Assembly (NCBI RefSeq): GCF_057098645.1 | Contig: NZ_CM169472.1 | Length of the DNA stretch: 64,000 nucleotides | Direction: 5' to 3' (one strand) | Shown: piece after piece, positions 1 to 3,000 of the stretch | Numbering within the stretch: position 1 is the first letter of the stretch | Layout: the number at the start of each line of letters is the position of its first letter | Program-made: the position numbers

Positions 1-3000
1 TAATCCGCCTCCTGATTGTGTTCGGATGCCGGACGGTAGAACTGAGGTTATCGGAGATCAGCGAGTGGGATTTTACCGAAATGCTCTGGACCGTGCCGAA
101 AGAACACAGCAAAACGAAGGTGGCAATATTCCGGCCCATACCGGAAGCAATACTGCCGTTCGTCACGCAGCTGGTGGAGCAGAACAGGCACACGGGTTTA
201 TTGCTGGGGGAAGTGAAACAGGAAACAAGCGTGTCGCAGTACGGCAGATTAGCGCATAGGAGGCTAAATCACCCTCACTGGTCACTACATGACATCCGGC
301 GCACCTTTACAACGATGCTGAACGATTTAGGCGTGGATCCTCACGTCGTGGAGCAGCTTACAGGCCACCAGATGCCAGGAATGCAGCGAGTTTATAATCA
401 TTCCCGTTATCTGGATGCTAAACGCAATGCGCTGGATATGTGGACGGAGCGGTTAGGGATACTGGCGGGAACACATGAAAACGTAACCACGCTACCAGTA
501 GCCAGAAGAAAATAATTTTTTTCGTGTTTTTTCAGCATGCGCATACTGGATATGCGAACAGATACAACGTGCAACAATGAGCAACAATGTGGAACAACCA
601 CGAACAAGAGGCGAAAAAGCGTACGGATTTATAAGTAGCTGATTTTTAATGCGTTACTGGTTTTTTATACACTAGCGAATCACTCTTTAAAGAGCGAGAA
701 AAAAGGCATGAAACAATATTTTATGCCTTTGTATTAACATGAATTTAAAAGATTTTATTCTTACTGTTTCATTTTCTGTAAATCATACATCCTCAGTATT
801 TGCCATTCATCACTCTAGCGGGAACAATACGACACAATAAGACACCTGATGACTCTTTAAGAAACGAAAGGGGGCAATAGTGTTAAGCACTGATCGGTTT
901 ATACGTGAAAAAGAATGCGAAAAACTAACCGGCCTTAGCCGTACGTGTCGCTACCGCCTGGAAAAGGCCGGACAATTCCCATCACGTCGTAAACTTGGCG
1001 GTCGTTCCGTTGGCTGGTCTTTATCCGAGGTTCTGGCCTGGAAGGATAGCTGCAAGGCAGTTCATTAATCACGCTGGCGGCACGCAGCCGCCACACATCA
1101 ATCATCTGAACACAGAGCTATAACCATGAAGATTGAATATACGCCAGAACGTAGGCGGGGATTCGTTCGCCCTGGTGAAACTGAAAAACAACAAAATTGG
1201 GGTTTTTCAGGCATAACAAAAAGCGCCCAGTTACCTGAGCGCCTTTGTGAACGATTAACCTGCTGCACAAAAAATAAATATGAGCATTGGAATTATATCA
1301 ACTGTGTGAAGAAGCGCCACAATTGCCGGATTACAGGCAAAAAAAATGCGACCTATGATGGTCGCAAAAATATGATATACATGTTGATTACACTATGCAT
1401 CGACAACGATGCCACATTTTTGGCTGGTTGGCAAATCTGTCATCAGGGCGGACAACAACGCCACGATCTCATCTTTCTTGGGCAATTTTTAAGAAAATCC
1501 TCAAGGGCAAATCTTTTTGGCCTTGCTTCCTGTTCATGGTCAGGCATTTCATCCATTTCTCTTAATTTTTTTTCTACCTGTCTTTCAAGTATGGATAATG
1601 CGATTTCCCGTAATTCTTCGTTGTTCATTGTCTACTCCTGTAAAGAAATGCGCCGTAGTTCCTCACACCACGGCGCTGATAGTGATTATTCTGATTCTTT
1701 GGCCTTCCGGCGCTGTTCATATTTTAATTTGCGTCCACAGGCATCTAAGACCCATGCGGAAAAATTAGCACTAGGATTAGTTAATTTTTCTTGTTCAACG
1801 CTGGCATCAATCCCATCTATAAGCTCATGTGGGAATCGAATATTTTTCTTTGCTGATTTGTTGTTTTTGTTACCGCTAGACATTGATGCACCTCACTTAA
1901 ATGGACTTTATGGGCGCACACAATACAGTAAAAAAAATGAGATGTTAAGTATTGACATGTGCGCACACATGATTTTAATCTGTGCGCACAGTTTGAGTTT
2001 TGTTACTCAAATTAAGCAACGCCCCGCAGTGCTCGCAACACATGCAGGGCGTCTAACCACCAACGATAGCAACAGTATCGAGGCAGCTATGAGAAATCAT
2101 ACCACACACCCGCAAGGGCGGGACTCGCACAACCTGAATAAATACATCTGGCGTTTTATCGCCCTGAGCACGGCACAACCGCGCGTGATTACCATTGAGG
2201 CCACCAGCGAACAGGAAGCACGCCAGCAATCTCCGGCTGGCTGCGTGATGGTATTCGCTGCCCGTATTCGTCAGGAGGTGTGCCATGTGCAATAACATCC
2301 GTCCGGACGCAGCCGCCGAAGCCATCATAACGCTAATGCACGCGCTGATTGATATTTCTGTTATCGCAGACATGGCGCATAAGCACGCCACCAGTGAAAC
2401 AGAATATGCCGGGGCTTTCGTTCCTCATTCGCTGGCGGTTATGCAACTTAGTGCGGATATGGCGCTGAATGAGGCCAAAGCCATCCTGATTGCTGATTGT
2501 GAAAATGGGGGGGGGTTATGCGTGATGATCGTTTTAATTCCCTGAAACAGGAATTTTCCGGCGTTCCTGATGATGCGGCTGATGCGCTTTCGTCAATATC
2601 TGAAATTATGCGGGTGGCTTTTTTCTTTCTTTGCACTGATGAGCACAGGGATACAGGGCTAAATATTCTTGATATTGCCGCTAACTATGCTGATTTCGTG
2701 ACAGAAGTTGTTTTAAGAAAAACGACGGACGGGGATTAATATGCGTGATATTTACCTTGAAACAATAGACCGCGCATTTCTTGCACTTTCTCACAGTGAA
2801 AACATGCTGGAAATATTGCGCATATGGCTTGACACGCTTGGAGATAATGAACGCGACAAACAAAAATCAAGAATTGCCACGGCATTAATAACGCTACTTG
2901 AGCCTGTAATAATGGAACTGCAAAAAATAGATCTATTGCACGACAGATATAAAGAACAGCACACCGGAGAATAAAAATAATGAAACTTAAATATTCTGGC

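What the first reader, a model, noticed from the sequence alone, without database searches (positions are those of the whole stretch)
1912..1990. Triplicated palindromic operator TGTGCGCACA at a divergent promoter
Three copies of a self-complementary 10-mer (one imperfect) lie within 80 bp, overlapping a rightward TTGACA/-10 promoter that feeds the icd-rep operon. They sit directly upstream of a leftward 65-aa gene with a good RBS. This looks like a compact genetic switch in an element that lacks a cI/Cro pair.
Basis: seen in the sequence. Interest (0 to 1): 0.55.

Follow-up and report, generated by a model that had tools for sequence, protein, structure and literature searches.

The report
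Small repressor switch in phage satellite
Three copies of a 10-base palindrome sit on two back-to-back promoters of an E. coli phage satellite and are very probably the binding sites of the adjacent 65-residue protein, which would give these satellites a repressor that had not been identified.

Summary
TGTGCGCACA occurs exactly at 1958-1967 and 1981-1990 and with one mismatch at 1911-1920. There are no other copies in the 64 kb.

The element is a capsid-forming PICI-type phage satellite inserted in E. coli tqsA. The 65-aa leftward gene (1686-1883) belongs to the uncharacterised YlcI/YnfO (DUF3950) family. A single-chain model of its dimer has a ribbon-helix-helix (RHH, Arc-like) fold.

In 36 homologous loci from Enterobacterales and Orbales the layout is the same:
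- one site in the spacer of the rightward promoter;
- one site at its -10/+1;
- one site at the -10/+1 of the small gene's own promoter.

The site sequence differs between lineages but stays matched within each locus.

Natural cassette swaps tie the palindromes to the small gene only. An island with 100% identical AlpA carries an Arc-like gene and a different palindrome. Islands with 88-93% identical Icd-like protein carry other YlcI variants and other sites.

The most likely mechanism is repression of the icd-rep operon plus autoregulation. No binding or expression experiment exists.

The whole cassette also lies antisense inside a long stop-free ORF that corresponds to P4 eta. This suggests AlpA-driven read-through bypasses the repressor.

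Verdict: a new member of a known kind, of moderate interest.

The parts
1911..1920 (.). O1: imperfect palindrome TGGGCGCACA. It abuts the -10/+1 of the leftward promoter and is the proposed autoregulatory operator.
   Evidence: The same position holds a perfect TGTGCGCACA in Rahnella loci L004/L005.
1958..1967 (.). O2: exact palindrome TGTGCGCACA inside the spacer of the rightward promoter, directly after the -35.
   Evidence: A site directly next to the -35 GTCAA/TTGAC is present in all 36 loci.
1981..1990 (.). O3: exact palindrome TGTGCGCACA at the -10/+1 of the rightward promoter, 23 bp from O2.
   Evidence: The 23-bp O2-O3 spacing is conserved.
1952..1981 (+). P_R: rightward promoter, -35 TTGACA 1952-1957 and -10 TAATCT 1976-1981 (18-bp spacer).
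   Evidence: Read from the sequence. It is not listed by the promoter scan because the -10 matches only 3 of 6. A TTGAC(A/G)...TAnnnT geometry is conserved in the anchored alignment.
1920..1948 (-). P_L: leftward promoter, -35 TTAACA 1948-1943 and -10 TATTGT 1925-1920.
   Evidence: A 'tgtata(g)' -10 abutting O1 is conserved.
1686..1883 (-). 65-aa YlcI/YnfO (DUF3950) family gene, predicted RHH repressor. SD GAGGTG at 1889-1894.
1650..1676 (-). Hairpin between the 65-aa gene and the next leftward ORF. It is terminator-like and is conserved in the Arc-type island.
1443..1628 (-). 61-aa leftward ORF downstream of the repressor gene. No family match, and not conserved with YlcI elsewhere.
1347..1366 (-). 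Intrinsic-terminator-like site ending the leftward transcription unit.
2003..2088 (+). Conserved structured leader of the icd-like mRNA: hairpin 1 at 2019-2052 and hairpin 2 at 2064-2080, next to the SD.
   Evidence: Fold z-score -3.8. 9 of 12 pairs show compensatory changes. Present in 1393 of 5426 E. coli genomes. No Rfam match.
2089..2295 (+). Icd-like gene (68 aa), first gene of the rightward replication operon.
   Evidence: NF033153 at 1.5e-19. The start is supported by the alignment of homologues.
1126..2295 (+). Long stop-free ORF (389 aa). It starts 19 codons after the alpA stop in the same frame, runs antisense through both leftward genes, the operators and the leader, and ends in the Icd-like domain. 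It is the positional counterpart of P4 eta.
880..1068 (+). alpA (62 aa), the published activator of Gram-negative PICIs.
   Evidence: phrog_2790. Literature: PMC6092414.

Best explanation
The three palindromes are operators of the adjacent 65-aa YlcI/YnfO-family protein, a ribbon-helix-helix (Arc-like) dimer.

Two back-to-back promoters share the 1911-1990 region.
- O2 (in the spacer) and O3 (at the -10/+1) block RNA polymerase at the rightward promoter P_R. This keeps the icd-like gene and the replication operon silent while the satellite is integrated.
- O1, which is imperfect here, abuts the -10/+1 of the repressor's own promoter P_L and gives negative autoregulation.

The gene plus its operators (about 1693-2002) is an exchangeable specificity cassette, comparable to a phage immunity region. 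It sits in the slot that in satellite phage P4 holds the CI-RNA immunity system.

What is shown:
- the sites and their positions;
- their conservation and concerted evolution;
- the cassette swaps;
- the family membership and the predicted fold.

What is inferred:
- binding of the protein to the sites;
- the sign of regulation;
- the idea that induction works because AlpA-activated transcription from upstream, translated through the long eta-like ORF, reads across the cassette and into the operon regardless of P_R.
For: 1. Sites. Three copies lie within 80 bp and nowhere else in 64 kb.

2. Geometry. In 36 loci found through the protein alone, the layout is O3 - 11-bp A/T spacer - O2 - GTCAA (-35) - about 30 bp - 'tgtata' - O1. 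It holds from E. coli to Gilliamella and Orbus.

3. Concerted evolution. The site consensus is GTGnnnnnnCAC with a lineage-specific centre. O2 and O3 differ by 2.24/12 within a locus and by 4.67/12 between loci. None of 20,000 permutations was as low. Shared ancestry cannot explain similarity between two different positions in one locus.

4. Natural swaps.
- The window's AlpA is 100% identical to that of island L038, which carries a 57-aa Arc-like gene (phrog_228, 1.5e-6) and two copies of ATGGTAATTACCAT on a TTGACA instead.
- The window's Icd-like protein is 93% and 88% identical to those of L045 and L042. Those islands carry other YlcI variants and other sites: GTGTATTTCACC and TGTAAGAC.
- The non-homologous block is exactly 1693-2002.

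6. Specificity positions. Residues 12 and 14, the equivalents of Arc Gln9 and Asn11, vary with the operator centre. Arg16 and the outer GTG/CAC are invariant.

7. The YlcI frame is the one under protein-level selection.
Against: - There is no experimental evidence of expression or DNA binding.
- The -10 of P_R is weak and the scan did not call it.
- The fold rests on an artificial tandem construct. Only one of five models was confident (mean pLDDT 66).
- The monomer model and the sequence searches of the PDB gave nothing.
- Pfam sees only DUF3950, not an RHH family.
- The residue-operator correspondence is not one-to-one. KKG loci L006/L007 also use TGTGCGCACA, and the lineages are few and related.
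- Published work explains induction of these islands by the activator AlpA without invoking any repressor (PMC6092414).
- K-12 ylcI lies in another context, next to cos and nohD, without such sites.
Confidence: 0.78

Rival explanations
1. The palindromes are bound by another regulator: AlpA, the Icd-like protein (PHROG label 'transcriptional repressor') or a host factor. The 65-aa gene is merely adjacent.
For: AlpA is the only experimentally shown regulator of these islands (PMC6092414). phrog_6196 and phrog_1743 label the Icd-like family 'transcriptional repressor'.
Against: Identical AlpA occurs with a different palindrome. 88-93% identical Icd-like proteins occur with different sites. The PHROG label probably derives from the legacy 'cI gene product' annotation of the P4 ORF, which carries the same Icd-like domain. 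A host factor would not explain lineage-specific sites that change together with the cassette.
Confidence: 0.06
2. The 65-aa protein is an RHH antitoxin-like autoregulator of its own small operon (65-aa plus 61-aa genes). The palindromes regulate only P_L, and the rightward operon is not under its control.
For: RHH antitoxins (TacA, CopG-type, ParD, MazE7) are among the fold matches. A second small gene follows on the same strand. O1 overlaps P_L.
Against: The 61-aa ORF has no family match and is not found next to YlcI homologues in any of the 36 loci. PADLOC gives no hit. The two best-conserved sites, O2 and O3, lie on the -35/-10/+1 of P_R, not of P_L.
Confidence: 0.08
3. The palindromes act at the RNA level. 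In read-through transcripts from alpA, O2 pairs with O3 into a stable hairpin that terminates or pauses transcription or blocks translation of the long ORF. This would be a counterpart of the P4 seqA/CI pairing.
For: RNA 1945-2012 folds with O2:O3 paired, at -24.3 kcal/mol and z-score -4.5. The region lies inside a translated-looking ORF. P4 uses RNA structures in the same slot (PMC10111431).
Against: In many loci O2 and O3 are direct repeats of a non-palindromic sequence (L010, L015, L025) and cannot pair. O1 lies 47 bp away, and its position is explained only by a promoter. This reading does not exclude the operator function.
Confidence: 0.05
4. The repeat cluster is a chance or mutational by-product with no function.
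For: The number of <=1-mismatch hits in the window equals the chance expectation.
Against: All three hits cluster within 80 bp. Exact copies exceed expectation. The positions are conserved across two bacterial orders.
Confidence: 0.01

Closest known systems
Phage P22 immI region: Arc and Mnt ribbon-helix-helix repressors at the divergent Pant/Pmnt promoters (established knowledge)
   Same: A small RHH repressor gene is transcribed divergently from the promoter it represses. The operators overlap the -35/-10/+1 of back-to-back promoters, with autoregulation. The predicted fold matches single-chain Arc, and the strand motif aligns with Arc.
   Different: There is no significant sequence membership in the Pfam Arc family. 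Here there are three short 10-12-bp sites rather than Arc's 21-bp operator, a single repressor rather than two, and a replication operon as the controlled unit rather than an antirepressor.
Satellite phage P4 immunity region: vis - eta/kil with internal promoter PLE, seqA (isrK) and CI RNA (C4) (PMC10111431, PMC3632133)
   Same: The slot and gene order are the same: alpA/vis, then a long ORF ending in an Icd-like domain, then replication genes. The P4 ORF matches NF033153 at 7.8e-21. An internal promoter lies inside that ORF. The reading frame is kept open, as expected if its translation prevents termination.
   Different: P4 uses an RNA repressor. Rfam finds isrK and C4 in P4 but nothing in the window. 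Here a protein repressor gene with DNA operators is embedded antisense in the ORF.
Stl/Rpr master repressors of Gram-positive PICIs (SaPIs) (PMC6092414)
   Same: A satellite-encoded repressor is transcribed divergently from the replication/packaging operon and would keep the island quiescent.
   Different: Stl proteins are large helix-turn-helix proteins that are lifted by binding helper-phage proteins. Nothing here indicates how, or whether, the 65-aa protein is inactivated. Gram-negative PICIs are reported to be induced through AlpA.
Arc-like cassette of EcCIEDL933-type cf-PICIs (locus L038/L043)
   Same: It is an allelic alternative at exactly the same position. It has a 57-aa leftward RHH gene, a repeated palindrome over a TTGACA, identical AlpA and the same leader, and it is also embedded in the long ORF.
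   Different: The protein family is different (phrog_228 Arc-like) and so is the palindrome (ATGGTAATTACCAT). Two copies were seen, not three.
YlcI (DLP12), YnfO (Qin) and the unannotated homologue at the right end of phage lambda
   Same: Same protein family (NF041551, PF13132).
   Different: The lambdoid copies lie next to cos and the small terminase gene. No GTGn6CAC triplet is seen upstream in K-12. Their function is unknown: no functional study was found.

Membership tests
YlcI/YnfO family (NCBIfam NF041551; Pfam DUF3950 PF13132) | Score above the curated cut-off of the family model | tested here: met
   59 bits against a cut-off of 30, E 3.5e-16. PF13132 E 1.6e-6. 124 homologues named YlcI/YnfO or DUF3950.
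Ribbon-helix-helix (Arc/MetJ/CopG) DNA-binding superfamily | Strand-helix-helix fold forming an intertwined dimer with a two-stranded antiparallel sheet | tested here: met
Ribbon-helix-helix (Arc/MetJ/CopG) DNA-binding superfamily | Significant sequence or profile match to a recognised RHH family | tested here: inconclusive
   Pfam gives only DUF3950. hhalign against Arc gives P 0.0086 over 18 columns in the expected register. Against Mnt it gives 0.076. PDB sequence searches were negative.
Ribbon-helix-helix (Arc/MetJ/CopG) DNA-binding superfamily | Binds repeated or palindromic sites in a promoter region | not testable with these tools
   Suitable sites exist and co-vary with the protein. 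Binding itself needs EMSA or footprinting.
Capsid-forming PICI (cf-PICI) satellite (the host element) | int, alpA and rep plus its own capsid, protease, portal, connectors, HNH, TerS and TerL; no tail or lysis genes; about 15 kb | tested here: met
   Window 1-12755 is 92-99% identical to the island in L001, which is annotated with exactly this gene set and is inserted in tqsA. The gene set matches the description in 10.1101/2022.09.08.507074.
Capsid-forming PICI (cf-PICI) satellite (the host element) | Induction and transfer dependent on a helper phage and on alpA | not testable with these tools
   Known only for EcCIEDL933 (10.1101/2022.09.08.507074).
P4-type RNA immunity (C4/CI RNA plus isrK/seqA) | Match to Rfam C4 (RF01695) and isrK (RF01394) upstream of the Icd-like/kil start | tested here: not met
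   No hit at gathering score in the window and none at E<=10 in 1850-2350. The positive control P4 gives both.
Type II toxin-antitoxin module with RHH antitoxin | Conserved toxin gene immediately downstream of the antitoxin | tested here: not met
   The 61-aa ORF has no Pfam, NCBIfam, PHROG or PADLOC match. It has no tblastn match in the 36 YlcI loci.
Lambda-type cI/Cro switch | Pair of helix-turn-helix repressors sharing tripartite operators | tested here: not met
   No such genes are annotated in the island. The regulator here is predicted to be RHH and is a single gene.

The most novel reading that the evidence does not exclude
YlcI/YnfO-type and Arc-type mini-repressors would be the missing master or immunity repressors of Gram-negative PICIs and cf-PICIs.

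They would form interchangeable protein-immunity cassettes that replaced the RNA immunity of P4, and they are encoded antisense inside a translated eta-like ORF. Induction would be a convergent-transcription switch. Helper-activated, AlpA-dependent transcription, kept Rho-resistant by translation of the stop-free ORF, would run over the repressor gene and its operators. That would silence the repressor and at the same time express the icd-rep operon.
Probability: 0.3. Interest if true: 0.7.

Novelty: new member of a known kind. Interest (0 to 1): 0.52.

Why it matters
[quoted passage not shown] It explains induction only through the activator AlpA (PMC6092414). I found no later paper in the searchable library that links these satellites to an RHH repressor.

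If the 65-aa protein represses the replication operon, four things follow.
- It supplies the missing repressor and explains how the island stays silent.
- It defines heteroimmune cassette types. At least five different cassette/site types were seen in E. coli islands, including one in Nissle 1917.
- It gives a first function to a family that includes the K-12 y-genes ylcI and ynfO and an unannotated lambda ORF.
- It shows protein immunity substituting for RNA immunity in the P4-type regulatory slot.

The prediction is cheap to test with reporters and gel shifts. It is also relevant to people engineering PICIs as delivery vehicles.

Tried and rejected
Searches that gave nothing:
- The monomer AF2 model (two helices, disordered N-terminus) gave no meaningful Foldseek PDB match.
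- Sequence and profile searches of the PDB gave only E about 1 noise.
- Rfam gave no family for the promoter/leader region.
- PADLOC gave no hit for the small genes or the long ORF.
- Pfam, NCBIfam and PHROGs gave nothing for the 61-aa ORF or for the N-terminal 186 aa of the long ORF.
- tblastn of the Icd-like protein did not find P4. The link to P4 came only through the shared NCBIfam domain.
- The upstream region of K-12 ylcI shows no comparable sites, so it does not help define the operator.

Ideas considered and rejected:
- AlpA or the Icd-like protein as the binder (rejected by the swap data).
- A toxin-antitoxin pair (the partner gene is not conserved).
- The YlcI ORF as a mere shadow of the long antisense ORF. 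Substitutions are conservative in the YlcI frame and not in the other. A Shine-Dalgarno is visible in most of the loci inspected. The family also exists in other contexts.
- The PGAP start of the Icd-like gene at 1942-equivalent. Homologues support the ATG at 2089.
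Full report
**1. The observation**

The sequence holds TGGGCGCACA at 1911-1920, TGTGCGCACA at 1958-1967 and TGTGCGCACA at 1981-1990. These are the only matches at <=1 mismatch in the 64-kb window. The count alone equals chance (3.53 expected), but all three lie within 80 bp. I estimate about 3e-5 for such a triple from that background rate. The two exact copies compare with 0.15 expected.

TTGACA lies at 1952-1957. The best -10 is weak: TAATCT at 1976-1981 with an 18-bp spacer. The consensus scan did not call it. The scan did call a leftward promoter, TTAACA-17-TATTGT, at 1948..1920.

The leftward 65-aa ORF (1686-1883) has GAGGTG five bases before its ATG. It is followed by a hairpin (1650-1676), a 61-aa ORF (1443-1628) and a terminator-like site (1347-1366).

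**2. The element**

Window 1-12755 is 92-99% identical to a roughly 15-kb island inserted in tqsA of E. coli DETEC-S792. That island is annotated with integrase, an AlpA-type regulator, YlcI/YnfO, Icd-like, DUF4222, RepA helicase, SSB and PerC. It also carries an HK97-type capsid, protease, portal, head-closure and connector proteins, HNH, TerS and TerL, and no tail genes.

This is the gene set of capsid-forming PICIs (10.1101/2022.09.08.507074). The literature states that Gram-negative PICIs are induced through the activator AlpA, whose expression a helper phage switches on. [quoted passage not shown]

**3. The 65-aa protein**

It belongs to the YlcI/YnfO family: NF041551 at 59 bits against a cut-off of 30, PF13132/DUF3950 and phrog_949. 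No functional study of this family was found.

Homologues are very similar. R16, F17, P18, F41, S42, W44, V45, A48, C49 and K52 are invariant.

A monomer AF2 model shows two helices and a disordered N-terminus and finds no structural neighbour. RHH strands form only in the dimer, so I modelled a tandem single-chain version from an alignment of tandem homologues. The best model has strand 11-17, helix 19-32 and helix 41-64 in both halves. Core pLDDT is about 81 and pTM is 0.58, but the other four models are poor.

- WYL1, DndE, AvtR and VirC2;
- TacA, CopG-family antitoxins and the PutA RHH domain.

hhalign places NIRFPHE on Arc NLRWPRE (P 0.0086). Fold membership is therefore supported. Sequence membership in a named RHH family is not.

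**4. Comparative test of the sites**

A scan of one genome per species with the protein alignment returned 36 loci in Serratia, Rahnella, Pectobacterium, Klebsiella, Xenorhabdus, Pantoea, Brenneria, Proteus, Providencia, Arsenophonus, Gilliamella and Orbus.

Anchoring each upstream region on the -35 of the divergent promoter gives the same plan in nearly all of them. Read in the orientation of the small gene, the plan is: a 12-bp site, an 11-bp A/T spacer that carries the -10, a second 12-bp site, GTCAA, about 30 bp, 'tgtata', a third site, and then the SD and start codon.
- O2 therefore fills the spacer of the rightward promoter.
- O3 abuts its -10/+1.
- O1 abuts the -10/+1 of the leftward promoter.

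Rahnella has three perfect TGTGCGCACA copies at offsets identical to the window.

The site consensus is GTGnnnnnnCAC. The centre differs by lineage: GCGC, TTAA, GTAA, CCGC, ACCC, CACCCC and others. Within a locus O2 and O3 differ by 2.24 of 12 positions, against 4.67 between loci. None of 20,000 permutations was as low. Similarity between two different positions of one locus cannot come from common descent. It indicates a shared, locus-specific binding partner.

**5. Which partner?**

Natural swaps answer this. Against an EcCIEDL933-type island (L038) the window is:
- 96% identical over 1-1266 (int end, alpA);
- 81% over 1612-1692;
- 86% over the leader 2003-2065;
- 94% over 2290-5847;
- not alignable over 1693-2002.

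In that gap L038 has a 57-aa leftward Arc-like gene (phrog_228 at 1.5e-6; Pfam Arc weak) and two copies of ATGGTAATTACCAT over a TTGACA. AlpA is 100% identical between the two islands.

Conversely, islands in E. coli RM8082 and Nissle 1917 encode Icd-like proteins 93% and 88% identical to the window's. They carry other YlcI-family variants and other repeated sites: GTGTATTTCACC as an inverted pair, and TGTAAGAC. A fourth type (MLI106K4) has GGTACGTACC twice.

Only the small leftward gene changes together with the palindromes.

The strand positions that vary among YlcI homologues are 12 and 14. In the hhalign register these are the equivalents of the base-contacting Gln9 and Asn11 of Arc (established knowledge). 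They sort with the operator centre:
- KKN and KKG with GTRCGYAC;
- TKG with CA[CT]A[AT]A;
- YKG with (T/G)TAA;
- KKH with G.ACCC;
- RKD with CCGC.

Arg16 and the outer GTG/CAC are invariant. This is suggestive, not proof. The lineages are few, and the mapping is not one-to-one.

**6. Mechanism proposed**

Shown: the anatomy, the conservation, the swaps and the fold prediction.

Inferred: the protein binds O2 and O3 and occludes the rightward promoter, so the icd-like gene and the replication operon stay off. Binding to O1 limits its own synthesis. In the window O1 is the imperfect and presumably weaker site, which fits repression of P_R before self-repression.

Rival ideas are each contradicted by specific data:
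- another binder;
- a toxin-antitoxin pair;
- an RNA hairpin formed by O2:O3;
- chance.

**7. An unexpected layer**

The frame of the Icd-like gene is open from the alpA stop codon (1066-1068) to 2295. It has an ATG at 1126 and runs antisense through both leftward genes, the operators and the leader.

In 15 of 25 homologous loci this frame has no stop in the 600 nt upstream of the icd start. That includes Gilliamella and Orbus at 32-35% G+C. The other two frames there hold 12-28 stops. One further locus (L028) probably also belongs here; my chosen ATG there appears to be off by one frame. In all loci that keep the long frame open, the two strands are in the phase where the wobble positions coincide.

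Protein-level selection acts on the YlcI frame. Identity there is 0.77 with a mean BLOSUM62 of substitutions of +0.16, against 0.64 and -0.87 for the antisense frame. The N-terminal 186 aa of the long ORF match no family.

The C-terminal Icd-like domain is shared with the old 'cI' ORF of P4, now called eta/kil (NF033153 at 7.8e-21). For P4, PMC10111431 summarises three points:
- the early promoter lies inside eta;
- translation of eta prevents termination, so that the upstream promoter reads through.

P4 carries isrK/seqA and C4/CI RNAs in this slot. The window carries none.

I therefore read the locus as a P4-type regulatory slot in which a protein repressor cassette has replaced RNA immunity. 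As a hypothesis, AlpA-driven, translated read-through bypasses P_R and opposes repressor expression.

**8. Other points**

The leader 2003-2088 forms two hairpins, and 9 of 12 pairs show compensatory changes. It occurs in 1393 of 5426 complete E. coli genomes, whereas this particular cassette occurs in 68.

Annotation pipelines disagree here. PGAP calls YlcI plus a truncated or 'pseudo' Icd-like gene. Phage annotations call only the long ORF, sometimes as 'transcriptional repressor'.

**9. Verdict**

The kind of system is familiar: a small RHH repressor with operators on divergent promoters, as in P22 immI. The family, its role in Gram-negative phage satellites and its antisense embedding are not described in the literature I could search. 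Everything about binding and regulation still needs experiments.

Noticed in passing
window 1126-2295 (+): A 389-aa stop-free ORF starts 19 codons after the alpA stop, in the same frame. It runs antisense through the 61-aa and 65-aa genes, the operators and the leader, and ends in the Icd-like domain. The frame is kept open in most homologous loci, including AT-rich ones, always in the wobble-matched phase. Its N-terminal part matches no family. It is the likely counterpart of P4 eta, kept open for translation rather than for its product.
   Followed up: partly
window 2003-2088 (+): Conserved structured 5' leader of the icd-like mRNA, with hairpins at 2019-2052 and 2064-2080. Compensatory changes occur in 9 of 12 pairs. 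It is present in about 26% of complete E. coli genomes, matches no Rfam family, and sits where P4 has its CI (C4) RNA.
   Followed up: partly
L038 2270-2496; L042, L043, L044, L045: The same slot in other E. coli islands holds alternative cassettes. One is an Arc-like 57-aa gene with ATGGTAATTACCAT x2 (O157 strains). The others are YlcI variants with TGTAAGAC (Nissle 1917), GGTACGTACC x2 (MLI106K4) and GTGTATTTCACC as an inverted pair (RM8082). This looks like a set of heteroimmune types.
   Followed up: partly
window 1942-2295; L001 13064-13411; L038 1827-2420; L040 4435-5109; L041 2592-3566: Gene calls conflict between pipelines. PGAP extends the Icd-like gene over the operators, or marks the front of the long ORF as an 'incomplete Icd-like' pseudogene. 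Phage records annotate only the long ORF (once as 'transcriptional repressor') and miss the YlcI gene on the other strand.
   Followed up: partly
window 1945-2012 (+): In a read-through RNA, O2 and O3 would pair into a stable hairpin (-24.3 kcal/mol, z-score -4.5) followed by a second hairpin at 1991-2012. This is not conserved where O2 and O3 are direct repeats.
   Followed up: partly
window 1612-1692: The hairpin between the 65-aa and 61-aa genes, together with the start of the 61-aa gene, is 81% conserved in the Arc-type island although the flanking cassette differs. Its role is unknown: attenuator, or terminator for either strand.
   Followed up: no
window 44105-44318 (+): Full-length match to the Rfam sRNA family STnc560 (280 bits). 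It lies far outside the island, in the chromosomal flank.
   Followed up: no
L039 6252-6446 (E. coli K-12 ylcI) and phage lambda right end: Lambdoid phages, including lambda itself, carry a YlcI/YnfO homologue transcribed leftward next to cos and the small terminase gene. It is unannotated in many lambda records. No GTGn6CAC triplet was seen upstream in K-12.
   Followed up: partly
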